A stretch of DNA of 64,000 nucleotides from Paracoccaceae bacterium (GCA_047638395.1 JBLIMV010000017.1:33431-97430), one strand, 5' to 3'; positions 50 to 13,586 are shown, numbered from the stretch's first letter. The notes: a model not told the origin generated them from the letters alone. Made by a program: numbers and translations.

Positions 50-2461
50 ATGAAAGAATTACGGATAGGCTTGGTGCTGTATGGCGGCGTCGCACTCGCC
101 GTTTATATCAATGGTGTTGTGACGGAGATCTGGCATGCGCTCCGCGCGTCACGGGCCATGCAGGATGGCGAAGACACCAATCTCGACAGCACGTCGGAAA
201 TTTATCGCGATCTCCTGGCGGAACTGAAAGAGACCGCCGATACCGACGAACTTCGTATCGTCGTAGATGCCGTGGCCGGCACGTCTGCCGGCGGCGTAAA
301 TGGTGCAGCCCTGTTCAAGGCGATCGTGCAGGGCGCCGACGCGTCGGTGCTGAACGATGTCTGGCTCGACGATGCGGATATCAAGAATCTGCAGGGGGAC
401 CCTGACCGTTTGCCCTGGTATCTGCGCGCTGCCGAAAACATGCTGCGTATTTTCCCGACACTGAAGAAACTGCGCAGCAACCTGCGCGAACAGACGACGC
501 TTGAATGGACCTGGATACGTGACACCATCTACACGTTGGCCGCGACCAAAGATCCGCAAAAATCCCCGCTAAAAGGCGATTTCTTCACGACAATCATTGC
601 CGCGTCTCTTCGGCGGATGTCCGAGAACAAGAAAAGCGAGCCGCTGCTGCCGACCCGCGGCACGTTCGACCTGTTTCTGACCAGGACGGACCTGCATGGC
701 TGGCCGCGCCATCTGCCTGTCAGCCGGAGGTATCACCCGACAGATCTGTATGAACGGACGCACGCCCATGTGATGGCCTACCGGGTACGCTTCGGCGATC
801 CACCATCCAAGATATCCGATTTCGAGCTGACCTATGGCGCCCGGACGACAGCCGGGTTTCCGCTCGCTTTTGCACCTGTCACTTACAAGGAAATCCGCCA
901 GAACTTCCTAGAAGCGCAACCTTCCGCGACACCACCTTCTGACGATGAATTCACCAATACGTATCTGCGGGAACATCACCTTAGCGGTTTCGATACAAGC
1001 AAAGCCCGTATGGTCGATGGCGGCGTGCTCGACAACCGCCCGTTCACCCATGTTACACGCGCCATCGAGGCAAAACCGGCCGACTTCGAAGTCCGCCGAA
1101 TTGTTGCCTATATAGAGCCCGACCCGGAGCGCGAGATCGACGCGGCACCCGATAACGGTCCGCTGACCAAGGATATGCTCGGAAACATGTTCCGCCTGTT
1201 CCGGAATGAACCGATTCTGGGCGACCTGCGCGAGCTGCAGAAAAGGAACGAAACCGTCAGCCGGATCCTTGAATTTCAGGCAGCAAACGCTCCCGTGACG
1301 GATGCCTTTATCAATCAGGTCGCTGGCAATCTTGATGGGGAAATCACCGAAGGCCGGCTAAACGACTGGCGGCGCGACGCCAATGCCCGCCTGCGGGCGG
1401 ACCCGATGTCCGGCTATCTGGGTTATGTCGGCCTGAAACTGCGAAGCGCATCAAACGTCTATGCAGATATCGCCTGCCGGGCACTGAATCTTCCCTATGA
1501 ATCACGCCATGCGTTTGCCGTCCGGCGCATCGTCCGACTATGGATGACCGGTCAGCCGGAAAATATTCTCGACCCGCTATCGGCCCAGCAGAATGGGTTG
1601 TCGGAGACGCTGACAGAGAACCAGATCACGCTGTTGCAGGCTTTCGACATACCTTTCCGGCTTCGCCGGATTCGCGCCATCGTCAAAACCATAAATGCTG
1701 AATACGATCACGCAACAGACCGCAGCGGTCTGGATGCCTGCAAGCGCGGCCTTGCCGATATCGTTTGCCGCTATGAAGTCGCGATGACCGACACTGGCGA
1801 CGACCTCCAGCAGATCGAACGCATCGTCGAAGACGATATCGACACCCTGCTTGACGTCCTTGCCGGCCAGCCAGAGACCATCGTTGCACAGTACGGAGAG
1901 ATGCTGGCGGGGATATTCGATGCGGTCGCCGGCCGCTTCCGGAATCTTGGTGTCGATGAAAACCGGAATATTGCAGAAGCGATCATGCTGCTGCCCGAGG
2001 AGGCGCGGCGCCGGGTCGCCCGGGCGCTGATCGCATTTCCGTATAACGACGTGATGATCTATCCGCTGATGGAAACGGCGGGCGTGACGGACCCGGTACC
2101 GGTCGAGACATTGCGCATATCCCCTTACGACGCCCGGATTGTGGGTGATCGTATAACACCGCTCGAATCCGCGGGATTCGGTGCATTCAAAGGATTCCTG
2201 AGCCGCCGCCTGCGGGAGATCGACCTTCTTTACGGCCGCCTGAACGGCATTGAACGCATGGTCGACCTGATTATCAACACCGCAGCGAAGGATCCCGCCT
2301 CACCCGCCATGCAGGAACGCCGGCAACGCTACACGGCCGCTGCAATGGCACGCGCGCTGGACGAGGCGGATGCCGCGGAAAAAACCGATATCAAACCGCT
2401 GGTCGCCGAGCTTCGAAAGAAACTGGATGCCTATGGAAACCAGGGCGGCCTCGTCGCCTGA
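50..2461 (+). CDS. patatin-like phospholipase family protein, large (~800 aa) with long C-terminal extension
   Basis: The GTSAG nucleophile elbow (GxSxG) and the DGGVLDNRPF catalytic-Asp motif are typical of patatin. ATG at 50 is preferred over GTG at 41 because of the upstream AAGGG. Beyond the patatin domain the protein has about 450 extra residues, as in the 'patatin-related' large bacterial proteins. Confidence 0.7.
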   Translation: MKELRIGLVLYGGVALAVYINGVVTEIWHALRASRAMQDGEDTNLDSTSEIYRDLLAELKETADTDELRIVVDAVAGTSAGGVNGAALFKAIVQGADASVLNDVWLDDADIKNLQGDPDRLPWYLRAAENMLRIFPTLKKLRSNLREQTTLEWTWIRDTIYTLAATKDPQKSPLKGDFFTTIIAASLRRMSENKKSEPLLPTRGTFDLFLTRTDLHGWPRHLPVSRRYHPTDLYERTHAHVMAYRVRFGDPPSKISDFELTYGARTTAGFPLAFAPVTYKEIRQNFLEAQPSATPPSDDEFTNTYLREHHLSGFDTSKARMVDGGVLDNRPFTHVTRAIEAKPADFEVRRIVAYIEPDPEREIDAAPDNGPLTKDMLGNMFRLFRNEPILGDLRELQKRNETVSRILEFQAANAPVTDAFINQVAGNLDGEITEGRLNDWRRDANARLRADPMSGYLGYVGLKLRSASNVYADIACRALNLPYESRHAFAVRRIVRLWMTGQPENILDPLSAQQNGLSETLTENQITLLQAFDIPFRLRRIRAIVKTINAEYDHATDRSGLDACKRGLADIVCRYEVAMTDTGDDLQQIERIVEDDIDTLLDVLAGQPETIVAQYGEMLAGIFDAVAGRFRNLGVDENRNIAEAIMLLPEEARRRVARALIAFPYNDVMIYPLMETAGVTDPVPVETLRISPYDARIVGDRITPLESAGFGAFKGFLSRRLREIDLLYGRLNGIERMVDLIINTAAKDPASPAMQERRQRYTAAAMARALDEADAAEKTDIKPLVAELRKKLDAYGNQGGLVA

Positions 2462-2483
2462 CGGCAGGCGCGGCAGCTTCGCC

Positions 2484-3464
2484 TCAGAGGTTGATCCGGA
2501 AGAGGTCCATCGTATTGGTGCGGCCGATCTTGATGCGGTCGGCTTCGCTGATGCTGCAGGTATCGAACCAGTCCGCCGCATGATCGACGTTCTCGAACGG
2601 CCAGTCAGCGGAAAACAGTACCCGGTCGGCACCAATCTCCAGCATCGCGTCGATCAGTGTCTGAGTACGGAAATTGCCCGATGTGGTGATGTAAAAATTG
2701 TTCTGAAAATACTCGCCCAGCATTTTCTGTGCCGGATAGCCCCGCTCATCCCCGACCCATTTATTCCGGTTGTCGATCCGCCACATGCTGTAGGGAAGAC
2801 CTTCGCCCATATGGCCCAGAACGATCTGCAGGTTGGGATGTTCATCGAACAGACCCGACGCCATCAATCGGAGCGCATGCACCGCCGTCTCCTGGCCGAA
2901 CGCCCAGGTCGGCCCCAATAGCCAGGGATGGCCTTCATAAATCTGCGCCATGCTCGGCAGCGGGTTGCGCGGATGCAGATAGAACGGCACGTCCAGCTTT
3001 GCGACGACGTCCCAGAACGGACGGTATTGCGGCAGGTCATAATACAGAGCGGATTCTTCAACATCGGCCTGCGAAAAGCCGTTGACCAGCGCGCCGACGA
3101 AGCCGAGTTCGTTCACGCAGCGTTCCATTTCGGCACAGGCCATATCGACATCCTGCAGGGGCAGCGCCGCGAAACCGCGGAACCGACCCGGATTGCGCTG
3201 AACCCATTCGGCCAGCATGTCGTTGGATTTTCTCGCTACCTCATTCGCCCGCTGGCGATCCGGGATCGCCTGAACAGCCGGTGCGTTGAGGGACAGTATC
3301 ATCATTTCGACGCCGTTCTGATCCATCTCGTCGATCCGGCGGCCTTCGATATCCATCAGGCGGCCGGAGAGTTCCTCCCAGGTTTCCGGCGGCAGATAGC
3401 CGTTCGAATCCTGCAGCGTATCCTCGATGGCGTAATGTTCTTCGAGCGCGATCTTGCCTTGCAT
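2484..3464 (-). CDS. amidohydrolase-2 family metal-dependent decarboxylase/hydrolase (ACMSD / gamma-resorcylate decarboxylase-like)
   Basis: The N-terminus MQGKIALEEHYAIEDTL matches the conserved start of ACMSD/LigW/gamma-RSD type amidohydrolase_2 proteins. The 326-aa length fits, and His/Asp metal ligands are spread through the sequence. Confidence 0.7.
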   Translation of the reverse strand: MQGKIALEEHYAIEDTLQDSNGYLPPETWEELSGRLMDIEGRRIDEMDQNGVEMMILSLNAPAVQAIPDRQRANEVARKSNDMLAEWVQRNPGRFRGFAALPLQDVDMACAEMERCVNELGFVGALVNGFSQADVEESALYYDLPQYRPFWDVVAKLDVPFYLHPRNPLPSMAQIYEGHPWLLGPTWAFGQETAVHALRLMASGLFDEHPNLQIVLGHMGEGLPYSMWRIDNRNKWVGDERGYPAQKMLGEYFQNNFYITTSGNFRTQTLIDAMLEIGADRVLFSADWPFENVDHAADWFDTCSISEADRIKIGRTNTMDLFRINL

Positions 3465-3552
3465 GACGGTCTCCCCGTTGAGATTGGATATCCCCGCTAT
3501 TCAGACGAGGTTTGTTGACCCTGTTTCTAGATGGGCCTCGATATTATTTCAA

Positions 3553-3571
3553 TATGAAAATGTTTCATATA
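3553..3571. promoter_or_regulatory. perfect 8-bp inverted repeat ATATGAAA-ATG-TTTCATAT in AT-rich spacer upstream of the amidohydrolase gene
   Basis: This palindrome was read directly in the 3465-3575 intergenic spacer, about 90 bp upstream of the start at 3464. It is a candidate operator; no regulator gene lies adjacent. Confidence 0.25.
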
Positions 3572-3575
3572 AAAT

Positions 3576-4886
3576 TCAATGAGTGGCACAGGTCCGAAAC
3601 CCGGCGAAGATATCCTGCCGGTGCGGCGGAAAGTAATTCCGGTATTTCGCGTTGATATAGCGGCTCCGCGTCACCCAGGAACCGCCGCGCAAGACCTTGG
3701 TATCGCCGAATAGCGGCTCCGAATATTCCTTGTAATCGTCCGGCGCAAAACCGTCGAACGGGCCGAACGTATCTGCCGTCCATTCCCACACATTGCCGAT
3801 CAGCTGCCGGCAGCCCCAGGCGTTTTCACCCGCCGCATAGTCTGCCGTATCGGCGTAGCCCATTCCGAACCCGTCCATATTGGCCCGGACAGGTGTGATC
3901 GGGTCGTTACCCCAGGGATAGTCTGACTTTATCAGCCCGGCATTACCGTCGGGGCGCATCGAGGCCGCAAATTCCCATTCGGCCTCGCTTGGCAGGCGGC
4001 GGCCCGCCCATTGGCAATAGGCAGTCGCTTCATGCCAGTTCACATGAACAACCGGCGCGTCCGGCGCAAGGTCCCGCCATTTATCGAACAGACGCACCTG
4101 CCAGGCATCGGTATCGACTCGTTTCCAGTAGACCGGATGCAGCGCACCCGCTTCCCGGCGCCAGGCAAGACCGGTCTCGGACCAAAGCGCATCGTTCAAA
4201 TACCCGCCGTCTTCGACAAATTCGGCATATGCGCCACAGGTTACCGGCGCCCGCGCCATACGGAACGGTGCAACGATGACATCATGCGCCCATTTTTCAT
4301 TGTCGAAGACAAAGGCGTCTTCAGGTCGTGCACCAAGACGGAATGTCCCGCCGGGAATGTCCGCATCGCCTTCGAGCGCCCCCGTCACGGCAAGCCGTTG
4401 CGCCGTCGCCGCGCCATCTGGCCGAAAGACCGGGGTCGGATATCCAAGCGTCTGACGTGCCCACGTAAAGGCCTCGTCATGCATGTCTTCGTGGAAGGCG
4501 GTGAACTGATAGAGGTAACTATCGCGCTCACTCGCAGCGCCTTTGTCCAGGCGCTCGATCAGCGTGTCCAGCACCGTCGCCATATACTCTTTCATCTCGC
4601 CCAGCGGATATACCGGCAGGTCCCAACGCGTATCGTGGGCAATCGCGATTGAATCGTAGAGCGCGTCTCCCCGCTCCAGCAACGGCTGATGGCCATCTCC
4701 CTGACGCAGGATGAAAAATTCATAGAACCAGGCCACATGCCCTATTTCCCAGATCGTTGGATTGAGGATCGGCAGTTTCGGTCCGACGAGTTGGTCGTCA
4801 GTCAATCCCTCCAGCAGCTCCAGCGTACGTTGCCGGGCGCTTTGCAGGGTCGATACGAGCTGGTCGCTGGTTACTTGTGCGGTCAT
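3576..4886 (-). CDS. senA: EgtB/SenA-family sulfoxide (or selenoxide) synthase: N-terminal DinB_2-like domain + C-terminal FGE-sulfatase (SUMF1-like) domain
   Basis: The N-terminal HVAWFYEFF DinB_2-type motif and the C-terminal RGGSW..R..YR..F FGE-family motifs match EgtB at 436 aa. Genomic context (SenB-like GT, SelD, no egtD) favours the selenoneine synthase subtype. Sequence alone cannot separate EgtB from SenA. Confidence 0.55.
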   Translation of the reverse strand: MTAQVTSDQLVSTLQSARQRTLELLEGLTDDQLVGPKLPILNPTIWEIGHVAWFYEFFILRQGDGHQPLLERGDALYDSIAIAHDTRWDLPVYPLGEMKEYMATVLDTLIERLDKGAASERDSYLYQFTAFHEDMHDEAFTWARQTLGYPTPVFRPDGAATAQRLAVTGALEGDADIPGGTFRLGARPEDAFVFDNEKWAHDVIVAPFRMARAPVTCGAYAEFVEDGGYLNDALWSETGLAWRREAGALHPVYWKRVDTDAWQVRLFDKWRDLAPDAPVVHVNWHEATAYCQWAGRRLPSEAEWEFAASMRPDGNAGLIKSDYPWGNDPITPVRANMDGFGMGYADTADYAAGENAWGCRQLIGNVWEWTADTFGPFDGFAPDDYKEYSEPLFGDTKVLRGGSWVTRSRYINAKYRNYFPPHRQDIFAGFRTCATH

Positions 4887-4907
4887 GAATCTTCGTTACG
4901 TTGGACC

Positions 4908-5865
4908 CATGAAGATTAGCCTCGTCACCCCCGCAGGGAAACAGTCGCGCGCGGGAAATCGTACCACCGCCATCCGATGGGCCCGGATTCTGAGCGATAT
5001 CGGGCACCGCGTCGAAATTTCGGAAGACAGTATCGGCAAGGGCGCGGACATGATGATCGCCGTCCATGCCTGGCGATCGGCAAAATCGATCCGGGCATTT
5101 TCACAGCAACATCCGGACCGACCGCTCGTCGTGCTGCTGGCCGGGACGGATATTTACCACTTCCAGCACAGTCATCCGGCGGAGACACTGGAATCGATGG
5201 AACGGGCGACCCAGCTGGTCTGCCTGCATGACCTGGTCCACCGGGCCATCCCCCGCAAGTTCGACAAAAAACTGCGGGTCATCCACCAATCCTCACCGCC
5301 GCTGACATCCCCGCGTCAGCCGTCGAAACGCTGGTTCGAGGTATGCGTTGCCGGACATCTGCGCGCGGAAAAGGATTCGCTGCGCACCGCCTATGCCGCG
5401 CGTCTGGCACCGGCGGACTCAAATCTGCGGGTGGTCCATCTCGGCAAGGCACATGACGATTCATGGGCGCGCGATGCCCGCGCGGAAGTGGCACACAACC
5501 CCCGCTTTGTGTGGCGTGGCGAGGTACCGGGCTGGCAGGTTCGCCGACAGTTCGCCCGCAGCCACGCAATGGTGATCAGCTCGGTCATGGAAGGTGGCGC
5601 GAACATTGTGTCCGAAGCCATCGTTTGTGGCGTGCCGGTGATTGCATCGCGTATCGACGGCAATATCGGGCTGCTTGGCGCAGATTACGAAGGCTATTAT
5701 CCGGCAAAGGATGAAGCCGCGCTGGCGGCACTGCTGCTGCGTGCCGAAAAGGAGCCGGCCTTCCTGAAGACCCTGGCACGCCAGTGTCGGGCCAAAAAAT
5801 CTTTGTTCGCGCCGGCAAAAGAAAAAGCCGCGTGGAAAACACTATTGAAAGATATGGGAGTCTGA
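4908..5865 (+). CDS. senB: small GT-B glycosyltransferase, SenB-like (selenosugar synthase candidate)
   Basis: A GT4-like C-terminal motif, EGGANIVSEAIVCGVPVIASRIDGN, is present. At about 319 aa it is shorter than typical GT4 enzymes. It is divergently adjacent to the EgtB-like gene (22 bp apart) and close to SelD. The start was chosen at ATG 4908, which gives MKISLVTPAG. Confidence 0.55.
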
Positions 5866-5867
5866 CA

Positions 5868-6791
5868 ATGCGGATCGCAATGATGGGCAGCGGCGGTATC
5901 GGTGGTTATTTCGGTGGCCGGATGGCGGCGGCCGGGACCGATGTGAGCTTTATCGCCCGGGGCCGGCACCTGGCGGCAATGCAGGAAGCCGGCCTGCGGC
6001 TCGACAGCCGGGATATGGGCGATGTCACCATCAAACCGGTCAGCGCCACCGACAACCCTGCAGAAATCGGTCCGGTCGACTACCTGATCATCGGTGTGAA
6101 ACTCTGGGATACCGAAGATGTCGGAAAATCGATCCTGCCGATGCTTGGCCCCGACACCACCATCCTGTCGCTACAGAACGGCGTCGACTGCGACGATATT
6201 CTGGCGCCCATCGTCGGCCGGGAGCGGCTGATCAGCGGCGTCGCCTTCATCGCAAGCTCAATCTCGGAACCGGGCGTCATTCGCCATATCGGCACGATGC
6301 AGCGCATCGTGATGGGCGAACCGGACGGCAGCATTTCCCCGCGCCTGACGGCCCTGCAAGACATGATGGTCCAGGGCGGAATCACCGCCGAGACCAGCGA
6401 CGATATCCAGCGCACGCTGTGGGAGAAGTTCGTGTTTCTCGTAGGGCTGAGTTCAACCACCACGTTGATGCGCACCACGCTCGGCCCGATCCGCGAGGCC
6501 CCCGAAAGCCGGGAATTCCTGTTCGGTGTGATGCGCGAAGCGACGGCTGTCGGACGGGCCATCGGCATCGACCTGCCGGAAGATTTCGCCGATACCCGTC
6601 TAATTTTTGCAGATGGCCTGCCGGTCGATATGACATCGTCGATGCACCACGATTTCGAGGCCGGCAATAAGCTGGAGCTATCCTGGCTGGCAGGAACCAT
6701 CGTTCGGCTGGGCCGCGAGGCCGGCATTTCAACGCCCGTATGCCAGACGGTCTATGCGGCGCTGCTGCCGAAGGCCGGCGGGGCGGCCTGA
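5868..6791 (+). CDS. 2-dehydropantoate 2-reductase family (PanE/ApbA-like) NAD(P)H oxidoreductase
   Basis: The N-terminal MRIAMMGSGGIGGYFGG Rossmann motif is typical of ketopantoate reductases. A GGGAG ribosome-binding site lies upstream. The start is 3 nt after the senB-like stop, so the two are translationally coupled. Confidence 0.7.
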   Translation: MRIAMMGSGGIGGYFGGRMAAAGTDVSFIARGRHLAAMQEAGLRLDSRDMGDVTIKPVSATDNPAEIGPVDYLIIGVKLWDTEDVGKSILPMLGPDTTILSLQNGVDCDDILAPIVGRERLISGVAFIASSISEPGVIRHIGTMQRIVMGEPDGSISPRLTALQDMMVQGGITAETSDDIQRTLWEKFVFLVGLSSTTTLMRTTLGPIREAPESREFLFGVMREATAVGRAIGIDLPEDFADTRLIFADGLPVDMTSSMHHDFEAGNKLELSWLAGTIVRLGREAGISTPVCQTVYAALLPKAGGAA

Positions 6792-9061
6792 CTAAACCCT
6801 GACCGTGATCGGCTCCAACCGGTCCGACTGTTCTTTTACCTCACCGACGATCATCGTCCGCGTATAGCCGAGTTCGATCAGCCTGGCGACACAGGCATCC
6901 GCGCGGTCGGCGGGCACGCTGGCAAGCAGGCCGCCCGCGGTCTGCGGATCGAAAATCAGCGGATATCGGGGATCTTTGCCGGCTTCTTCCAGATTGGCGA
7001 CCGCGCGGCGCAGGCGCACGTTCTGCGGCTGCAGCGATGAGACGATCCCAGCGCGCACGGTATCTTCGGCACCGTCCATCATCGGCACGGCATCAAGCAC
7101 AAGCTCGACATCGACCTCGGATGCCCGCACCATTTCCACCAGATGGCCGAGCAGGCCGAACCCGGTGATATCAGTCGCCGCCCGGCTGCCATATTCAACC
7201 AGGCACTGCGCACCGAGGCGGTTCGACATCACCATATGATCGAGCGCAGCGGCGATCCACCGGCCCTTGGCCTTGTGGCGCATGTCGGCCGCGAACAATG
7301 TGCCGGTCCCGATCGGCTTGGTGACAATCAGCTTGTCGCCGGGCTTAAGGCCGCCCTTGCGCATGATCTTGTCCCTGTCGATTAGCCCGTTGACCGAAAA
7401 ACCAAGGCTGAGCTCGGGGCCTTCGCTGGTATGGCCGCCGACAAGGCTGCAATTGGTATCGTTCAGGATCTCCATCGCGCCGGACATCATCTGGGTCAGC
7501 GTATCCTCGACCTTGGATTCGATGCCAAACGGCACCGTGGCGACAGCAAGCGCGGTCTGCGGATCGGCGCCCATGGCGAAGATATCGCCGAGGCTGTGAT
7601 TGGCCGCGATTTTGCCGAACACGTACGGATCATCGATCATCGAGCGGAAATAGTCGACCGTGTGCACCATCACTTTGCCCGGCGGCACTTCGACCACAGC
7701 GGCATCGTCCGGCTCGTGCAGGCCGATCAGCACATCGTCGCGCGGCGCGGGCGTCAGTGTATTGAGGGCCCGCGACAACACGCTGGCCCCAACCTTGGCG
7801 CCGCAGCCGCCGCAGCGCATGGCAATTGCCGAGATTTCCTTGACCACATCGGCACTCGCCAGCCCGGCGGGCAGATCGGTTTTTTCTTCCTCGTCCATGT
7901 CGGGGAGGTCGTTGAACTTGTCCATAAAGCGGCGGTCGATCCAGTCTTTCCAGCGCCACAACGCCTCGCCCTTGATGGACCAGCCACCGCGCGACGCGAC
8001 GGCGAATTTGTCGCCGGTCGAAATCAGTCCGAGGAAATTCTTTTGCGGCCGGAAGGGGCGCTGCGTCTGCCCCAGAAGCGCCCGGCGCAGGTTTCGTTCC
8101 AGCGGCTTACCCTGACGCACTGCGAACACGCCCGACTTGGGCCGCGGATGATTGACCATCGCGGCAACGTCACCCGCAGCATAAACGTCTGGATGAGACG
8201 TCGATTGCAACGTATCGCCGACCTTGATAAAGCCGCCGTCATCCACATCGAAACCGGCTTCGCTTGGCCAGGACGGCGCGCCCGCGGCGGTTACCCACAG
8301 GATTTCATCGGCGGCAATCTCTTCACCACCGCCCGTCTTCAACAGCCCCGGCATAATCTCGGTGACGGGCTGTCCGAGATGCAGGTTCACGCCGCGGCGC
8401 TGAAGCACTTCCATAAAGGTCCGGCGCGCCCGGGCGTTATGGGTCGGCAGGATCTCCGCCGTATTGCTGAACAAATGGAATTCAATGTTGTCCGCCGCAT
8501 TGCCAGCAGCTTCACGCAGTTCGCTCAGCCGGTGCTGAATTGCCAGCAGAATTTCCACGCCACCTGCCCCGGCACCGACGACGGCAATCCGCAGCGGACC
8601 TTCATGCGCCATGGCCCGGACACTCAGCGCTTCCCACCGGTCAAGAAAATTATTGATCGGTTTGACCGGAACCACATTGCCCGTCGCACCGGGCACACCC
8701 GATGTATTTGGGGTCGAACCCGTATTGATCGATACCAGTTCGAACGGCACGGGCGGCCGGTCATCACAGATCACGCGCCGTTCCCGCAGGTCGAGCCCCG
8801 TGACGGTCGAATGATAGAAGCGCGCATTGGCAAACCGTGCCAACGCACCGAGATCGATATGTGCTTCGTCATAAGTGTAATGACCGGCAACGTATCCAGG
8901 CAGCATCCCCGAATAGGGCGTGTGCGCATCACGGCAGATCAACGTGAGGCGAACACCGGGCACGGGTTTCATACCGAAACGTTTGAGCACCGCGACATGG
9001 CTGTGTCCGCCGCCAATCAGCACCAGGTCTTTGACAATCGGGGTATCGGATTTTTGCATAA
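6792..9061 (-). CDS. selD: bifunctional FAD-dependent pyridine nucleotide-disulfide oxidoreductase (NADH dehydrogenase-like) / selenide, water dikinase SelD
   Basis: The N-terminal VLIGGGHSHVAV dinucleotide-binding motif marks the oxidoreductase half. The C-terminal half begins MRCGGCGAKVGASVL, the SelD Cys-type glycine-rich active-site loop, and continues with AIR-synthase-related PurM-like folds. The start was placed at the internal ATG (MQKSDTPIVKDLVLIGGG), 4 nt after the permease stop. Confidence 0.8.
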
Positions 9062-9063
9062 GA

Positions 9064-10551
9064 CTATCGTTGTTCCAAAGTTGTCTGAAGGCGCAGCCGG
9101 GACCGGATGGACCGGGAAATTGCATCGACGCAGATATTGAGCATCGCCGTAATCAGGATCAATAACAGCGCCCGGTCGAACCGCAGGTCGGCGAACGCAC
9201 TGTCTACATAGAATCCCAATGTCGCAATGCCGAGAATACCGAGAATGGCCGTTTCGCGGAGGATGACCTCCCAACGGTAGAACAGCAATGCCAGCATTGG
9301 CCGGTAGACACGGGGAAGCACCTCGTAGAAATACCTGTTCACGCCCTTCACGGCATCAATCCGGAGTTGAACTGTTTCAGTGTAGCGCCCGATAAGATGT
9401 CCGATAATCGCCGCATTGTGCAGGCTGAGAGCGACAATCGCCGGCAACATCGAGGGGCCCCATAGATTGAGCAGAACAAAGGCAAGGATATATTCCGGCG
9501 TTGACCGGACAATCACCAGAAACGTATGCCCGCCGGTACGCGCCGCGCGACCCAGCAAAAGCGGCGAAATCAGCGGAAAAAAGATCAGCGTGAGAAAACC
9601 GGTCGCAACCAGCGCAATCATGGTGAGCTGGATTGTCGCCACCATTCCGGGCCAGGCCTGATCAAACAGCATCATCGCGAGCCAGTCGCCAAAGGCTGCG
9701 AGCGATCCATCACCACCGACACGCAGCGGATACGGCACGATATCGACCGTAAAGAACCGCGAGACATTCGACCACGAGAACGCAACACCCCAGGGCAGGA
9801 TTGCGGCTGCCGCCACCAGGTAAACCGGCAGTAGCGGCTTTTTCATCCAGATCCGCATGGTCGCGATCACCAGATAGAACAGGATCAGCAGCGCGGAGAC
9901 CTCGGAGTAATAACCTTCCTTGAACGCCGTTTCGAGATGAAACCCAAGCGTCGGCAGCCCGATAAAACCCAACACCGCCGATGACCGAAGACCGCATTCG
10001 AGCCGGTACATCGAATAACTTCGAAAATGAGCCCAGGCATCCGGCAGACGCACGAACAAAAAAGTCGATGCCCTGCCCGCGCCAACCGGCACCGCACTCA
10101 ACGGTCGCTGATCGGCTTCTTCAAGAATTTCCGCATAGACCTTGGCAATGATCCCGGCATAGGGGATGGCGATCGCCAGCACACCGGTTAGCGGCGACAA
10201 CCCAAACATCTGTAGGAAAATCAGTGCCCAGAACAATTCATGGATCGAGCGAATAAAAGCACAGCCGACCCGGACGGTCCGGCTATGAAATATGAGCGCG
10301 AGGCCGAATCCAAAGATGTTGGCCAGTGCCACGCCAAGCAGTGCAAACGCAAGCGTATAGGCAAGCGCCAGGCCCAGGCTGTTGGTTGCATAGAAATCCG
10401 GTGTGACGATCCCTTTGAGCAGCAGCCCGAATTCTCGCCACGGGTCGGCCGTCGAGATCGCGATGTCGGCAAATATCCAGCAGACGATCGCGACGAACAG
10501 AAATCCCGTGGTCGTACGCGCGAGCGGAGAGGGTTCGCGGCGCGCGATCAT
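9064..10551 (-). CDS. ABC transporter permease, PhnE-like, fused double transmembrane domain
   Basis: This 495-aa polytopic membrane protein carries two PhnE-type permease repeats. Its start overlaps the ATPase gene and its stop lies 4 nt before the SelD-fusion start. Confidence 0.75.
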   Translation of the reverse strand: MIARREPSPLARTTTGFLFVAIVCWIFADIAISTADPWREFGLLLKGIVTPDFYATNSLGLALAYTLAFALLGVALANIFGFGLALIFHSRTVRVGCAFIRSIHELFWALIFLQMFGLSPLTGVLAIAIPYAGIIAKVYAEILEEADQRPLSAVPVGAGRASTFLFVRLPDAWAHFRSYSMYRLECGLRSSAVLGFIGLPTLGFHLETAFKEGYYSEVSALLILFYLVIATMRIWMKKPLLPVYLVAAAAILPWGVAFSWSNVSRFFTVDIVPYPLRVGGDGSLAAFGDWLAMMLFDQAWPGMVATIQLTMIALVATGFLTLIFFPLISPLLLGRAARTGGHTFLVIVRSTPEYILAFVLLNLWGPSMLPAIVALSLHNAAIIGHLIGRYTETVQLRIDAVKGVNRYFYEVLPRVYRPMLALLFYRWEVILRETAILGILGIATLGFYVDSAFADLRFDRALLLILITAMLNICVDAISRSIRSRLRLQTTLEQR

Positions 10552-11213
10552 TCCACGCCGTTAAGATACAGATTGTCGAGATCGCCGGGCGTCATTCCGG
10601 CAGATTCCTGATCCATCACGATCTGCCCGGCCTTGACGCCGATCAACCGGTCGGCAAACTCAATCGCCAGCGCACGGTCGTGCATCGCGAGAATAACGGT
10701 TTGTTTCTGCGCATTCATGGTTTCGAGAATTTCACGCGCCTGATGTTCATCGACCGACGATACCGGCTCGTCAGCGACGATGATGTCTCCGGTATGGAAC
10801 AGGGCGCGGGCAAGCGCGGTGCGCTGATACTGACCGCCCGATAGCTGGCCAACGCCCGAAAACATCTTGTCTTCCAGCCGCAGTGGAATGAGAATCTCTC
10901 GAACCTCCTCCACATCATCACGCGCCGGCAACACAAGATTGCGCAGGTTGCGCCAGACTGACCGCTGGTGAAGCCGCCCCATATAGACGTTATGAAAGAC
11001 TGTCAGCGCCTGAACGAGCGCAGAATCCTGAGGCATCAGAGCCGCTTTTGCCCCAAGACGCTCATAAAAAAGACGGAGCAGGGTGGATTTCCCTGCTCCG
11101 CTTTCTCCGATGAGCGCAATTCGCTCACCAGGTTCGATACTCAGCGTGAGCCCGCGAAGAATCTCTTTGCCGTTATAGCCGGCCGATTCGTCTTTGAGCT
11201 CAAGCAGGGCCAT
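10548..11213 (-). CDS. ABC transporter ATP-binding protein, PhnC-like
   Basis: The Walker A GESGAGKST, the LSGGQ signature LSGGQYQRTALARAL, and Walker B with D-loop IIVADEPVSSVD are all present. Confidence 0.8.
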   Translation of the reverse strand: MALLELKDESAGYNGKEILRGLTLSIEPGERIALIGESGAGKSTLLRLFYERLGAKAALMPQDSALVQALTVFHNVYMGRLHQRSVWRNLRNLVLPARDDVEEVREILIPLRLEDKMFSGVGQLSGGQYQRTALARALFHTGDIIVADEPVSSVDEHQAREILETMNAQKQTVILAMHDRALAIEFADRLIGVKAGQIVMDQESAGMTPGDLDNLYLNGVE

Positions 11214-12085
11214 CAGTCGATCAGGCCGATCGTCTTTGCCGTATCCTTAATCGGCGCATAATCAGAATTCTTGGCCGGAATGAAGGAGGCTCTCGGAAAT
11301 GAACTCAACAAATCCGGATCGTTCATCGATATCAGTGCGGATTGAACTTTATCGGCGAAACCCGGACCAAAGGTCTTGTCGACATCGCCCCGAATGGACC
11401 AGTTGTAGTCCGGGTAGCCCGGGGTTTTCCAGATAACACGGACCTTTTTGGGATCAATCGTTCCGTTTTTGATCCCCTTTTTCCACACCTTGAAATTTGT
11501 TGCCCCTACTTCGTAAGCACCGGACTGAACCAACGCTACCGTCCTCGAGTGGTTTCCACTAAAGCCGACACGGCTGAAAACCTGCTGGGGCACTTTTCCG
11601 AAAGCCTTTCGGATATGAAATTCGGGCATCAGGCGCCCGGAAGTTGAGCCCTTGGAACCGAACGTGAAGGTTTTACCGGCGATCGCTTTCGGAAAGTCCT
11701 TCGACAAGGTAAGTCCGGTACTGGCGTTGGCGATAAAATAGGTCTCGAAATTCGGATCAGCCTTACCCTGCGCAATTGCCTTTGATCCCTCCACAAGTCC
11801 CCTTGCCCGGACCCCCGACAAACCACCAAACCACGCCAACTGGACCTGATTGTTACGGAAGGCCGTAACCGCCGCTGAGTAGGATTTAACGGGAACATAT
11901 TCGACTTTTGTTGAGAGTGTTTTTGAAAGATATTTCGCCACCTTATCAAAGCGCTTACGTAGCTGGCTTTCGTCCTGATCCGGAATTGCGGTAAAGACGA
12001 ATCCTTCGGCAGCATTTGCCTGCGTTGCCGGCAGGACCGGCAGCGCGATTACCGCAGCAGCGGCAAGAACAGTAAGGAATCTCAT
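11213..12085 (-). CDS. PhnD/PtxB-like periplasmic substrate-binding protein; putative selenate/selenite-binding
   Basis: A signal peptide (MRFLTVLAAAAVIALPVLPATQANA) is followed by a PhnD-fold pattern, FVFTAIPDQD..VEYVPVKSYSAAVTAF..QVQLAWFG. The gene sits in an operon with selD, like the family annotated as putative selenate ABC binding protein. Confidence 0.65.
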   Translation of the reverse strand: MRFLTVLAAAAVIALPVLPATQANAAEGFVFTAIPDQDESQLRKRFDKVAKYLSKTLSTKVEYVPVKSYSAAVTAFRNNQVQLAWFGGLSGVRARGLVEGSKAIAQGKADPNFETYFIANASTGLTLSKDFPKAIAGKTFTFGSKGSTSGRLMPEFHIRKAFGKVPQQVFSRVGFSGNHSRTVALVQSGAYEVGATNFKVWKKGIKNGTIDPKKVRVIWKTPGYPDYNWSIRGDVDKTFGPGFADKVQSALISMNDPDLLSSFPRASFIPAKNSDYAPIKDTAKTIGLID

Positions 12086-12311
12086 ATAACGTCTCCTGTT
12101 GAATGCGCGGGTGCTCCAAGCCTCTCCCGAAGCAAGCTGACACCCACGATAATAATGAAATGACGGGACAAAACACCCCGTTGCAGGGGCTCTTGTCTAA
12201 ATAGCTGTGTAAAGATTACGTGACCAGCGTAAAGCGGGATTTGTTATGCTAAAATTCGGCCTGAAAAAGACGCCTGAAGGCCATATCAGGCCTGCGTCAG
12301 ATCGGTAATGG

Positions 12312-13451
12312 CTAACGACCGGCCGCTTCACGCAACACACCAAGGGTCTGCCGCGCCGTTTCTTCCCAGGTAAAGGTCCGCGCCCGGCGCGCGGCTTTCC
12401 TGCCCAATTCCACACGTAGCTTCGGTTCGACCAGCAACGTGGCAATGCGGGCGGCTATCTCTTTGGCATTGTCAGGATCAAACATCAGTCCGGCATCGCC
12501 GATGACTTCGGGCATTGCCGCCGCGTTTGATGTCGCAATCGGTGCGCCGTGGGCCATTGCCTCGAGCAGCGGATTGCCGAATGTTTCTACCGACGACGGG
12601 AAAACGAATAACTGGCAATCCCGGTACAGCGCATCCAGCTCCGACGTCTCGACATGGCCGACAAACTTCACCGTGTCTTCCAGCCCAAGATCGCGGACCA
12701 GACCGCGGAGAGTTTCCGCATAGTGACTGTCGATCTCACGCCCCACGACCGTCAGCGTCAGATCCGAGCGGCTCTGCCGCAGAATAGACATGGCATGCAG
12801 GAGCGTATGGTAGTTCTTCTGAATATATATATCCGACACCGCCAGCAGGTTGGTGCCCTGTACTTCGTTGTCCTCGCGGGGTGCGACGACAGGTGCGGTC
12901 CCGTGATAGACGACACTTACCTTTTTCCCGCGAACGCCTTTCAGCCCGAATGTCAGCAAGCCTGCGGCGTAATTCGACACCGCGATGGCTCGCCGCGCGG
13001 TCAGCAGTGATGCAAGTGTCGCCCCTGACAGCATGAACCAGTACGTCAACGGCTTCAGCCGCCGGGCCAGCCGTATGACCGAAGTCGCATTTCGTAACAA
13101 TAAAATATGATTCCGGGCAAAGACCGGCCCAAAATTGGCGGGCGAGAAAAGCACGTCCACGGACAGCCTTCGGGCGATCCCGGGCAGTTTGAACTGTTCC
13201 CAGAAAAGAGTTGGGAAAAAACCGGGTCGGTAATCACACGTCACGACGTCGATCCCATCGGGAACCGGGTCAAACAAAGGGAGCTGGTCTTTGTGTAATA
13301 TCAGATGCAGGCTGACACCGGGTTCGGCGGCCAGGAGTGGCAGCATCTGGCGCAGATAGGTTACACCGCCGCCGGTCTTGGCGTGGGACGCATTAATCGC
13401 AATGCGAAACGGTAGCGGGGCCTGACCCGAGAGGGATGCTGCGGTGGACAT
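12312..13451 (-). CDS. glycosyltransferase family 4 (GT-B)
   Basis: The GT4 signature E..FGNPLLEAMAHGAPIATS lies near the C-terminus. Length is 379 aa. Confidence 0.7.
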   Translation of the reverse strand: MSTAASLSGQAPLPFRIAINASHAKTGGGVTYLRQMLPLLAAEPGVSLHLILHKDQLPLFDPVPDGIDVVTCDYRPGFFPTLFWEQFKLPGIARRLSVDVLFSPANFGPVFARNHILLLRNATSVIRLARRLKPLTYWFMLSGATLASLLTARRAIAVSNYAAGLLTFGLKGVRGKKVSVVYHGTAPVVAPREDNEVQGTNLLAVSDIYIQKNYHTLLHAMSILRQSRSDLTLTVVGREIDSHYAETLRGLVRDLGLEDTVKFVGHVETSELDALYRDCQLFVFPSSVETFGNPLLEAMAHGAPIATSNAAAMPEVIGDAGLMFDPDNAKEIAARIATLLVEPKLRVELGRKAARRARTFTWEETARQTLGVLREAAGR

Positions 13452-13586
13452 ATATAATCCGAAATCTACTTTGCACGCCGGTATACACTAACATGCGGGC
13501 GAGTTAGCAAGAAAGCGGGCCTGAACCCGGCCCGATGCCGATTTCCTTCATATGCAACGTTTTTCGTTGACGGACAGATACCCGGG

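What the first reader, a model, noticed from the sequence alone, without database searches (positions are those of the whole stretch)
3576..12085. Selenoneine-type selenium metabolism cluster: EgtB/SenA-like synthase, SenB-like glycosyltransferase, SelD fusion and a dedicated ABC importer
Three gene types co-occur within about 5.5 kb. They are an EgtB-family enzyme (DinB_2 + FGE-sulfatase domains), a small GT-B glycosyltransferase divergently abutting it, and a selenophosphate synthetase (SelD) domain. This is the genetic signature of the senA/senB/senC selenoneine pathway recently described in Variovorax paradoxus. No egtD (hercynine-forming methyltransferase) is present in the window. That argues against a plain ergothioneine locus and implies the hercynine comes from elsewhere. 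The arrangement here is divergent senA/senB, with SelD fused to an oxidoreductase and sitting in a transporter operon. It differs from the simple senCBA operon and may be a distinct architectural variant.
Basis: partly seen in the sequence, partly recalled or inferred. Interest (0 to 1): 0.7.

Follow-up and report, generated by a model that had tools for sequence, protein, structure and literature searches.

The report
Selenoneine gene cluster with selenium importer
This is a real but already-known kind of gene cluster for making the selenium antioxidant selenoneine, in the layout shared by many uncultured marine alphaproteobacteria, where the selenium-activating enzyme is fused to a flavoprotein and sits behind an oxyanion importer.

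Summary
Window 3576-12085 encodes a SenA-type selenoxide synthase, a SenB selenosugar synthase 22 bp away on the other strand, a PanE-like reductase, and a four-gene operon. That operon holds a binding protein, an ATPase, a permease and a flavoprotein-SelD fusion.

NCBI's curated models place the 436-aa protein in SenA (496 bits, cutoff 420). It falls below the EgtB cutoff (325 against 360). Its best solved-structure hit is the ovoselenol enzyme OvsA, but that is a length effect. The active-site residues are the hercynine/selenosugar type (H84, Y388, N417, Y418, F419), not OvsA's M/Q/A. SenB and SelD keep their catalytic residues.

No egtD exists anywhere in the 64 kb (six-frame profile search), which is normal for sen clusters.

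The layout is not unique:
- Divergent senB/senA occurs in 13 of 17 other sen loci.
- The fusion and the nearby transporter are each already published.
- The six core genes (all but the PanE-like gene) recur in at least six related marine alphaproteobacterial lineages, one of them without the importer. NCBI already names their proteins SenA.

One side observation: the importer's binding protein is a close homologue of picocyanobacterial PhnD1, which binds phosphite and phosphate in experiments. Its selenium ligand is therefore inferred only.

Verdict: new member of a known kind, modest interest.

The parts
3576..4886 (-). senA: selenoneine (selenoxide) synthase, 436 aa, long form with a 50-aa segment (residues 313-363) that V. 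paradoxus SenA lacks
   Evidence: NCBIfam SenA NF041186 scores 495.8 bits (cutoff 420); EgtB TIGR03440 scores 325.4 (cutoff 360). Fe triad H50/H132/H136 and catalytic Y385 are present. H84 and F419 stand in place of EgtB R87/D416. Y388-N417-Y418 is the hercynine-type motif. These residues are invariant across 118 clade members apart from H84 (117 of 118) and Y418 (102 Y, 16 F).
4887..4908 (.). 22-bp divergent gap between the senA and senB start codons
   Evidence: Sequence read directly. The gap is 22-26 bp in all six related loci. No room is left for two promoters, so each promoter must lie inside the other gene (inference).
4909..5865 (+). senB: selenosugar synthase (Se-glycosyltransferase), 318 aa
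   Evidence: TIGR04348 scores 405.4 bits (cutoff 300). The match to the solved structure of Ramlibacter sp. SenB (RsSenB) is 188 bits. The equivalents of N20, T23, H58, D86, R155, K158, E231 (EGGA motif) and E239 are all conserved.
5868..6791 (+). PanE/ApbA-family NAD(P)H oxidoreductase, 307 aa, 2 nt after senB; membership in the pathway is uncertain
   Evidence: Pfam ApbA + ApbA_C; TIGR00745 subfamily at 234 bits. Present only in the close relatives with at least 78% SenA identity (L089-L091) and absent from L084, L085 and L087.
6807..7820 (-). SelD (selenophosphate synthetase) domain of the fusion protein; plays the SenC role
   Evidence: TIGR00476 selD scores 304 bits (cutoff 125). E. coli SelD scores 166 bits. 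C419 and K422 (755-aa numbering) align with the catalytic C17 and K20. Only 31-37% identical to the unfused sen-linked SelDs of other phyla and 32.5% to E. coli SelD.
7914..9029 (-). N-terminal FAD/NAD(P)H pyridine-nucleotide-disulfide oxidoreductase domain of the same ORF (whole ORF 6792-9059, 755 aa)
   Evidence: TIGR03169 'Nterm_to_SelD' scores 501 bits (cutoff 310). NDH-2-type structures match at 82 bits. The fusion class is described in PMC2432076 and PMC4561486.
9064..10551 (-). ABC permease, duplicated PhnE type, 495 aa
   Evidence: TIGR01097 PhnE scores 218 bits with two matched stretches. It overlaps the ATPase gene by 4 nt and ends 4 nt before the fusion start.
10548..11213 (-). ABC ATPase, 221 aa
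   Evidence: Pfam ABC_tran; best NCBIfam match is PhnC-like.
11213..12085 (-). Periplasmic binding protein of the PhnD1 / TIGR04553 family, 290 aa
   Evidence: TIGR04553 'putative selenate ABC SBP' scores 375.9 bits (cutoff 250). The closest solved structures are picocyanobacterial PhnD1 (7S6G 225 bits, 5LQ5 195 bits). Ligand residues Y44, S124-T125-S126, H156, D203, Y204, N174 and D11 are all conserved.

Best explanation
A six-gene selenium-to-selenoneine module of an uncultured, probably marine, alphaproteobacterium. The proposed steps are:

1. The PhnD1-type ABC importer takes up a selenium oxyanion. I think selenite is more likely than selenate.
2. The flavoprotein domain of the fusion protein uses NAD(P)H to bring the selenium to the selenide level. 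The SelD domain then converts selenide plus ATP into selenophosphate.
3. SenB transfers a sugar from a UDP-sugar (UDP-GlcNAc in the characterised system) onto selenophosphate and removes the phosphate, giving a 1-seleno-sugar.
4. SenA, an Fe(II)/O2 enzyme, joins the selenosugar's selenium to C2 of hercynine. The selenoxide eliminates the sugar and leaves selenoneine.
5. Hercynine comes from an egtD elsewhere in the genome or from outside the cell.

What is shown: gene identities, conserved catalytic and specificity residues, operon structure, and conservation of the module across lineages.

What is inferred: every chemical step (by homology with the V. paradoxus enzymes), the ligand of the importer, the role of the flavoprotein domain, and the source of hercynine.
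For: Family assignments
- Curated family models: SenA 495.8 (cutoff 420), SenB 405.4 (300), SelD 304 (125), Nterm_to_SelD 501 (310), TIGR04553 375.9 (250). EgtB falls short at 325.4 against 360.

SenA specificity
- The SenA signature published in the discovery paper (EgtB R87/D416 replaced by His and Phe/Tyr) is present as H84/F419.
- The hercynine-binding residues of SenA (Y366/N395/F396) appear as Y388/N417/Y418.
- The Fe triad and the catalytic Tyr are present. All these residues are invariant or near-invariant in 118 clade members.
- In an NJ tree the His84-type proteins separate from EgtB types in 194 of 200 bootstraps.
- In Propionibacteriales locus L010 another long-form SenA, whose branching relative to this clade is unresolved, has egtD immediately upstream.

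SenB and SelD
- All SenB residues found to matter in mutagenesis are conserved.
- The SelD Cys/Lys pair is conserved.

Genomic context
- The operon is tightly coupled.
- Related loci L084, L085, L087, L089, L090 and L091 all carry the fusion, senB and senA; five of the six also carry the importer.
- NCBI annotates 77-79% identical proteins as 'selenoneine synthase SenA'.
Against: - No egtD lies in the 64 kb or within 10 kb of the cluster in six relatives, so the hercynine supply is unproven.
- The best-scoring solved structure is OvsA, not SenA.
- SenA identity to the characterised enzyme is only 42.7%.
- The aromatic residue is Tyr where characterised SenA has Phe.
- The nearest experimentally studied relatives of the binding protein bind phosphite and phosphate; selenium ligands are not mentioned in that paper.
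- The SelD domain is not orthologous to the Burkholderiales SenC lineage and could also serve selenocysteine or selenouridine synthesis.
- No biochemical or metabolite data exist for this clade.
Confidence: 0.8

Rival explanations
1. It is an ovoselenol (ovs) cluster. The 436-aa enzyme would be an OvsA that selenylates free histidine at C5, which would explain the missing egtD. A separate OvsM methyltransferase would finish the product.
For: - The best solved-structure matches are OvsA entries (313.5 and 305.3 bits), against 239 for SenA.
- ovs organisms mostly lack egtD and are aquatic proteobacteria.
- In the tree the sister of the alpha clade is unresolved, and OvsA lies nearby.
Against: - The three residues that define OvsA specificity (M401, Q430, A431) are Y388, N417 and Y418 here. 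That is the state which converted OvsA into a SenA when engineered.
- The OvsA-YNF mutant structure scores higher than wild-type OvsA against the query.
- Per-residue identity is higher to SenA (42.7%) than to OvsA (39.6%). The bit-score advantage comes from a 46-50 aa segment that V. paradoxus SenA lacks.
- No OvsM-like or any candidate small-molecule methyltransferase is in the window.
- Alpha clade plus OvsA is recovered in only 10 of 200 bootstraps.
Confidence: 0.05
2. It is a selenosugar-dependent pathway to a different product. SenA-like chemistry would act on an acceptor other than hercynine, such as a partly methylated histidine or another imidazole, because this lineage has no EgtD.
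For: - egtD is absent from the window and from about 20 kb around the cluster in six relatives.
- The aromatic position is Tyr rather than Phe in 102 of 118 clade members.
- The clade is a distinct, deeply separated branch (200 of 200 bootstraps).
Against: - The Asn plus aromatic pair that binds the trimethylammonium group is kept, and EgtB uses Trp at the same place, so the aromatic residue is interchangeable.
- Most characterised sen clusters also lack a local egtD.
- A long-form relative (L010) has egtD next to senA.
Confidence: 0.1
3. The ABC transporter is not a selenium importer. It would be a PhnD1-type phosphite/phosphate transporter that is merely syntenic with the selD fusion, and selenium would enter by another route.
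For: - The closest characterised homologues (Synechococcus and Prochlorococcus PhnD1, 195-225 bits) bind phosphite at 0.7-3 uM, and phosphate and methylphosphonate more weakly.
- All their ligand-contacting residues are conserved here.
- In Synechococcus the same operon is followed by tesA, not selD.
- One clade member (L084) has the fusion, senB and senA without the transporter.
- The NCBIfam name is only a 'hypothetical equivalog'.
Against: - The transporter genes are translationally coupled to the SelD fusion, with 1-nt and 4-nt overlaps and a 4-nt gap.
- The arrangement is kept in 6 of 7 alphaproteobacterial lineages, counting the window.
- More distant homologues (34-36% identity) also flank sen clusters in Burkholderiales (L018, L020, L022).
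- The sen discovery paper reports the same association.
- The picocyanobacterial hosts cannot use phosphite and do not regulate the operon by phosphorus, so phosphite may not be the physiological ligand there either.
Confidence: 0.25
4. It is an ordinary ergothioneine EgtB locus, with sulfur chemistry, that happens to lie beside selenium genes.
For: - DinB_2 + FGE-sulfatase architecture is shared.
- Identity to M. thermoresistibile EgtB is 37%, with a full-length alignment that includes the 46-aa segment.
- Some JGI records call homologues EgtB.
Against: - The EgtB model scores below its cutoff.
- The thiol-binding R87/D416 pair is replaced by H84/F419.
- There is no egtA, egtC, egtD or egtE in the window.
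- The gene is adjacent to senB and SelD.
- The tree separates it from R87-type enzymes in 194 of 200 bootstraps.
Confidence: 0.02

Closest known systems
sen cluster (senA/senB/senC) of Variovorax paradoxus and other bacteria (Kayrouz et al. 2022; bioRxiv 10.1101/2022.04.13.486033)
   Same: - It has the same three enzyme functions.
- The SenA signature residues, SenB catalytic residues and SelD catalytic Cys/Lys are all present.
- There is no local egtD.
- A PhnD-type 'selenate transporter' lies nearby, as reported for many sen clusters.
- senB and senA are divergent, as in 13 of 17 other sen loci examined.
   Different: - SenA is a long form that keeps a 46-50 aa segment lost in V. paradoxus SenA. 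Long forms also occur in other phyla (L004-L010).
- Tyr replaces Phe at the cation-pi position.
- The SelD is from a different lineage (31-37% identity), is fused to an N-terminal flavoprotein, and sits at the end of the transporter operon, convergent on senB rather than downstream of it.
- In the window's sub-lineage a PanE-like gene follows senB.
ovs (ovoselenol) cluster of Halomonas utahensis / Marinobacter (Kayrouz et al. 2024; bioRxiv 10.1101/2024.04.10.588772)
   Same: - It uses the same selenosugar cassette plus an NHISS enzyme.
- It has a long-form enzyme, with 39.6% identity and the highest structure-database bit score.
- Its hosts are aquatic proteobacteria, and there is no local egtD.
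   Different: - The specificity residues are Y/N/Y (hercynine, C2), not M/Q/A (histidine, C5).
- No ovsM methyltransferase is present.
- The host is an alphaproteobacterium, not a gammaproteobacterium.
NADH-dehydrogenase-like-SelD fusions (TIGR03169 + SelD; Zhang et al. 2008 PMC2432076; Mariotti et al. 2015 PMC4561486)
   Same: - It has the same N-terminal COG1252-type flavoprotein fused to a Cys-type SelD.
- It carries the same prediction that the flavoprotein supplies reduced selenium to SelD.
   Different: Those papers tie the fusion to selenocysteine and selenouridine use. Here it is embedded in a selenoneine cluster and follows an importer operon. I found no paper in the searched library that describes the fusion serving as SenC.
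Picocyanobacterial PhnD1-C1-E1 transporter (Bisson et al. 2017 PMC5700983; Shah et al. 2023 PMC10284923)
   Same: - It belongs to the same NCBIfam family (TIGR04553). The crystallised PhnD1 proteins score 334 and 297 bits against a cutoff of 250.
- All ligand-binding residues are conserved.
- It has the same three-gene transporter layout with a duplicated permease.
   Different: - In cyanobacteria the operon is followed by tesA, and it is interpreted as a phosphate/phosphite system.
- Here it is coupled to flavoprotein-SelD and senB/senA.

Membership tests
SenA (selenoneine synthase, NHISS family) | DinB_2 + FGE-sulfatase two-domain fold, with the curated SenA HMM above its cutoff | tested here: met
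   Pfam domains found. NF041186 scores 495.8 bits against a cutoff of 420.
SenA (selenoneine synthase, NHISS family) | Three-His iron site and catalytic Tyr | tested here: met
   H50, H132, H136 and Y385 align with the ligands and Tyr of SenA, OvsA and EgtB. They are invariant in 118 homologues.
SenA (selenoneine synthase, NHISS family) | EgtB thiol-binding Arg87/Asp416 replaced by His and Phe/Tyr (selenosugar donor site) | tested here: met
   H84 and F419 are present.
SenA (selenoneine synthase, NHISS family) | Hercynine-binding Tyr366 / Asn395 / Phe396 (V. paradoxus numbering) | tested here: met
   Y388 / N417 / Y418. The aromatic residue is Tyr in 102 and Phe in 16 of 118 clade members.
SenA (selenoneine synthase, NHISS family) | Genomic linkage to senB and a selD | tested here: met
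   senB lies 22 bp away and the SelD domain about 1.9 kb away. The linkage is conserved in 6 related loci.
SenA (selenoneine synthase, NHISS family) | C2-selenylation of hercynine with a selenosugar; a hercynine supply (egtD) in the same organism | not testable with these tools
   No enzyme or metabolite data exist. egtD is absent from the 64-kb window, and the rest of the genome is unavailable.
OvsA (ovoselenol selenoxide synthase) | Histidine-binding motif Met401 / Gln430 / Ala431 | tested here: not met
   The query has Y388 / N417 / Y418 at these columns.
OvsA (ovoselenol selenoxide synthase) | Co-occurring OvsM N-pi-methyltransferase | tested here: not met
   No such methyltransferase is among the window's ORFs; the only methyltransferase is an RlmH-type SPOUT enzyme. 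The rest of the genome could not be tested.
EgtB type I (ergothioneine sulfoxide synthase) | Curated EgtB HMM above its cutoff; Arg87/Asp416 thiol-binding pair | tested here: not met
   TIGR03440 scores 325.4, below 360. H84/F419 stand in place of R/D. The protein is separated from R87-type enzymes in 194 of 200 bootstraps.
SenB (TIGR04348 selenosugar synthase) | Curated HMM above its cutoff; N20, T23, K158, E231 (EGGA motif) and E239 | tested here: met
   405.4 bits against 300. All residues are conserved.
SelD / SenC (selenophosphate synthetase) | SelD HMM above its cutoff; catalytic Cys17 (or Sec) and Lys20 in the glycine-rich loop | tested here: met
   TIGR00476 scores 304 bits against 125. 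The motif is GGC419GAK422.
SelD / SenC (selenophosphate synthetase) | Orthology with the stand-alone SenC of characterised sen clusters | tested here: not met
   31-37% identity to sen-linked SelDs of other phyla, no closer than to E. coli SelD at 32.5%. It is fused to a TIGR03169 domain that is absent from all 17 non-alphaproteobacterial sen loci.
TIGR04553 'putative selenate ABC transporter' binding protein | Curated HMM above its cutoff | tested here: met
   375.9 bits against 250.
TIGR04553 'putative selenate ABC transporter' binding protein | Binds a selenium oxyanion | not testable with these tools
   The family name is a hypothesis from gene context. Crystallised members (PhnD1) bind phosphite, phosphate and methylphosphonate.

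The most novel reading that the evidence does not exclude
The PhnD1/TIGR04553 importer family is physiologically a selenite transporter. Selenite is a trigonal XO3 oxyanion like phosphite, which these proteins bind best. Here the importer feeds a self-contained line from uptake through reduction and activation to selenoneine, in widespread marine alphaproteobacteria.

This would explain the published paradox that picocyanobacteria keep a phosphite-binding transporter although they cannot use phosphite and do not regulate the operon by phosphorus. It would also point to pelagic alphaproteobacteria as a source of the selenoneine that accumulates in marine animals.
Probability: 0.2. Interest if true: 0.6.

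Novelty: new member of a known kind. Interest (0 to 1): 0.3.

Why it matters
Selenoneine accumulates in tuna, whales and people who eat them, and its natural origin was described as enigmatic before the sen pathway was found.

This window, and the many metagenomic relatives (several from marine and Tara Oceans samples) that share its six core genes, indicate that a complete sen pathway with its own selenium uptake and activation genes is common in uncultured marine alphaproteobacteria. That gives a concrete candidate source to test.

It also gives the strongest gene-context argument available for a selenium role of the PhnD1-type transporter family, whose function in picocyanobacteria is unresolved.

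For annotation, nothing here is new. NCBI's models already name these proteins.

Tried and rejected
1. Ovoselenol hypothesis. It was raised by the OvsA top hit in the structure database. It was rejected on specificity residues, per-residue identity and the absence of ovsM.

2. Genome-contig scan with a clade alignment. The 17 distant sen loci were still useful as an architecture comparison. The close relatives were reached instead through the look-up of encoding contigs.

3. Rfam scan of the whole window. It found only one tRNA-Ser, with no riboswitch or SECIS-like family.

4. Promoter and terminator scan of 2300-13600. Promoter-like sites were below the shuffled expectation, and nothing usable was found for the 22-bp gap.

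5. The PanE-like gene as a pathway member. It is present only in the nearest relatives, where the whole neighbourhood (UbiD, GT4, Amidohydro_2, patatin) is syntenic. Adjacency there is therefore not evidence of function.

6. An unusual SenB sugar pocket (E in place of V157, N in place of H235). These turned out to be the majority states among SenB homologues.

7. Conserved cysteines in the flavoprotein domain as a hint to mechanism. This was uninformative because the homologues retrieved were all at least 75% identical.

8. A test of whether cyanobacterial phnD1C1E1 is also followed by selD. It is not; tesA follows.

9. A first tree attempt timed out and was redone with a faster distance method.

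Full report
**What is there**

- senA-like, 3576-4886 (-), 436 aa.
- senB-like, 4909-5865 (+), 318 aa. The start is fixed by the HMM alignment and by gene calls on identical contigs.
- A four-gene minus-strand operon: binding protein 11213-12085, ATPase 10548-11213, duplicated PhnE-type permease 9064-10551, and a 755-aa flavoprotein-SelD fusion 6792-9059. An upstream ATG at 9125 would give 777 aa.

The transporter genes overlap by 1 and 4 nt, and the fusion starts 4 nt after the permease stop.

The senA and senB start codons are 22 bp apart on opposite strands.

Identical copies of the SenA protein occur on contigs from JGI metagenome 3300054698 and two SRA runs. The window therefore comes from an uncultured organism. 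Its housekeeping genes, and the names attached to its homologues, point to an alphaproteobacterium.

**Is the EgtB-like enzyme a SenA?**

NCBI's curated SenA model scores 495.8 bits (cutoff 420). The EgtB model scores 325.4, below its cutoff of 360.

A search of solved structures gave an unexpected order: OvsA, the ovoselenol enzyme, at 313 and 305 bits, ahead of M. thermoresistibile EgtB at 245 and V. paradoxus SenA at 239. This raised a serious alternative, because the ovoselenol pathway uses free histidine and its hosts mostly lack egtD.

I read the two pathway papers for their diagnostic residues.
- The discovery paper states that EgtB's thiol-binding Arg87/Asp416 pair is replaced by His and Phe/Tyr in all SenA proteins.
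- The ovoselenol paper shows that OvsA differs from SenA at Met401/Gln430/Ala431, where SenA has Tyr/Asn/Phe. Mutating those three residues turns OvsA into a SenA.

In alignments built from the HMMER output, the window protein has:
- H50/H132/H136 (iron ligands) and Y385 (catalytic Tyr);
- H84 and F419 (selenosugar type, not the EgtB thiol type);
- Y388/N417/Y418 (hercynine type, not histidine type).

The engineered OvsA-YNF structure even scores higher than wild-type OvsA.

Per-residue identity is highest to SenA: 42.7%, against 39.6% to OvsA and 37.4% to EgtB. The OvsA bit-score lead arises because V. paradoxus SenA lacks a 46-50 aa segment (query residues 313-363) that the query shares with OvsA and EgtB.

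The motif is invariant in 118 clade members, apart from H84 (117 of 118) and Tyr/Phe at position 418.

A neighbour-joining tree separates all His84-type enzymes from Arg87-type EgtBs in 194 of 200 bootstraps. It recovers the alphaproteobacterial clade in 200 of 200. It leaves that clade's sister group unresolved; clade plus OvsA appears in only 10 of 200.

Conclusion: this is a SenA, of a long-form sub-branch.

**SenB and SelD**

The 318-aa protein scores 405 bits on the SenB model (cutoff 300) and 183-188 bits against solved SenB structures. It conserves every residue that mutagenesis showed to matter: N20, T23, K158, E231 in the EGGA motif, and E239.

Glu in place of Val157 and Asn in place of His235 looked unusual. 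They are in fact the majority states among SenB homologues.

The C-terminal half of the fusion passes the SelD model (304 bits against 125). It has the Cys/Lys pair of the E. coli active-site loop, GGC419GAK422. The N-terminal half passes TIGR03169, 'N-terminal to SelD' (501 bits against 310).

This fusion class is well documented, and the flavoprotein was predicted to supply reduced selenium to SelD.

The SelD domain is only 31-37% identical to the unfused SelDs that sit in sen clusters of other phyla. That is no closer than to E. coli SelD at 32.5%. This lineage therefore fills the SenC role with a different SelD.

**egtD**

None of the roughly 50 larger ORFs in the window hits the EgtD family.

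I then built an EgtD profile from three EgtDs found in fetched loci and searched all six frames. There was no hit at E<=10 in the window or in the six related alphaproteobacterial loci. The profile did recover egtD in L017, L020 and L010.

In L010 (Propionibacteriales), egtD lies directly upstream of another long-form SenA.

Absence of a local egtD is normal. [quoted passage not shown]

Whether this organism has egtD elsewhere cannot be tested with these tools.

**How special is the layout?**

In 17 sen loci from other phyla (Burkholderiales, Zixibacteria, Planctomycetota, Actinomycetota and others):
- senB and senA are divergent in 13;
- an unfused selD is nearby in 10;
- a PhnD-type binding protein is nearby in 3;
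- none has the flavoprotein domain.

In six alphaproteobacterial relatives with 64-86% SenA identity, several from marine metagenomes including a Tara Oceans scaffold:
- all have the fusion convergent on senB and a 22-26 bp senB/senA gap;
- five have the importer immediately upstream of the fusion;
- three, those with at least 78% identity, have the PanE-like gene.

Among those closest relatives the whole neighbourhood is syntenic (UbiD, GT4, Amidohydro_2, patatin-like). The PanE-like and Amidohydro_2 adjacencies therefore cannot be read as functional.

The fusion protein has homologues of 75-97% identity in a great many metagenomic contigs. They include 'MarineAlpha11' and Rhodospirillaceae MAGs.

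NCBI already labels 77-79% identical proteins 'selenoneine synthase SenA'.

The combination is thus a clade-typical variant. Each of its elements is already known.

**The importer**

The binding protein passes TIGR04553, 'putative selenate ABC transporter' (376 bits against 250). This is a model type that encodes a hypothesis from gene context.

Its closest solved relatives are picocyanobacterial PhnD1 proteins (225 and 195 bits). All PhnD1 ligand residues are conserved: Y44, the S-T-S motif, H156, D203, the capping Y204, N174 and D11.

Both crystallised PhnD1s themselves pass the TIGR04553 cutoff (334 and 297 bits). NCBI names the Synechococcus CC9311 protein accordingly.

Experimentally these proteins bind phosphite best, at 0.7-3 uM, then phosphate and methylphosphonate. 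Yet their hosts cannot grow on phosphite and do not regulate the operon by phosphorus, which the authors call paradoxical. That paper never mentions selenium.

In Synechococcus the operon is followed by tesA, not selD.

The selenium role therefore rests on gene context only, and the context in this window is strong: translational coupling to flavoprotein-SelD, conserved in 6 of 7 lineages counting the window.

I infer that selenite, which shares phosphite's three-oxygen trigonal shape, is a more likely ligand than selenate. This is untested. A plain phosphite/phosphate role remains a live rival, at about 0.25.

**Verdict**

It is a new member of a known kind, in a layout typical of uncultured, largely marine alphaproteobacteria.

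The claim of a distinct architecture is only partly justified.

Interest is modest at 0.3. The value lies in the ecological pointer (a marine bacterial source of selenoneine) and in the PhnD1 link, not in new biochemistry.

Noticed in passing
window 11213-12085 (-); loci L092-L094: The cluster's binding protein belongs to the same NCBIfam family (TIGR04553, 'putative selenate') as the crystallised picocyanobacterial PhnD1 proteins, and it keeps all their ligand residues. PhnD1 binds phosphite best, although its hosts cannot use phosphite, and the published work never considers selenium. Selenite as the true ligand would resolve that paradox. In Synechococcus the operon is followed by tesA, not selD.
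   Followed up: partly
window 5868-6791 (+): A PanE/ApbA-family NAD(P)H reductase starts 2 nt after the senB stop and ends back to back with the fusion gene stop. It is present only in relatives with at least 78% SenA identity, sometimes with an extra DUF4019 gene. It passes the general ketopantoate-reductase subfamily model but no equivalog model. Its role, if any, in the pathway is unknown.
   Followed up: partly
window 2484-3464 (-): An Amidohydro_2-family gene (326 aa, no NCBIfam hit) lies 111 bp downstream of senA on the same strand. It keeps this position in relatives down to 71% SenA identity (25-111 bp gaps in L085 and L089-L091), at 89-96% identity itself. It may be co-transcribed with senA or merely syntenic.
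   Followed up: partly
window 4887-4908; L084-L091 at about 9975-10000: The senB/senA divergent gap is only 22-26 bp in every alphaproteobacterial locus. Both promoters must therefore lie inside the opposing coding sequences, and the 5' ends of the two transcripts would overlap in antisense.
   Followed up: partly
L017 5600-11245; L020 5147-11116; L010 8829-14505: Some sen loci are combined with ergothioneine genes. L017 and L020 (Betaproteobacteria) have egtD, an Arg87-type EgtB that lacks the catalytic Tyr, selD and senB, all divergent from senA. L010 (Propionibacteriales) has egtD directly upstream of a long-form senA-senB, with selD further downstream.
   Followed up: partly
L004, L005, L007, L009: The non-alphaproteobacterial SenA proteins closest in identity (47-52%, Burkholderiales MAGs) sit in divergent senB/senA pairs. 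No selD lies within the sequence held, which for L004 is 10 kb on each side. Selenophosphate must come from a distant selD.
   Followed up: no
window 12163-12190 (-), upstream of the binding-protein gene: A GC-rich hairpin followed by a T-rich run (GCCCCTGCAACGGGGTGTTTTGTCCC) lies between the GT4 gene and the importer operon. It is conserved almost exactly in L089 and L091 but not in L090 or L085. It could be the terminator of the upstream gene or a regulatory element of the importer operon.
   Followed up: partly
window 13587-49770: This is a long run of catabolic-looking genes: two UbiD-family decarboxylases, three luciferase-like monooxygenases, a Rieske LigXa-like oxygenase, a molybdopterin hydroxylase, hydantoinase A/B and a second Amidohydro_2. 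Glutamate synthase genes are interspersed. A 765-aa ORF (23222-25519) and several ORFs of 220-330 aa have no Pfam hit.
   Followed up: no
window 46001-48000: G+C drops to 0.50 against about 0.59 elsewhere, around a 260-aa ORF (46713-47495, -) with no Pfam match. This may be a small foreign insertion.
   Followed up: no
L087/L088 2620-3285 (-): In the Rhodospirillales relative, a 218-aa class I SAM methyltransferase lies divergently upstream of the importer operon. It is too short for EgtD and lacks the EgtD family hit. It was not seen in the other lineages.
   Followed up: no
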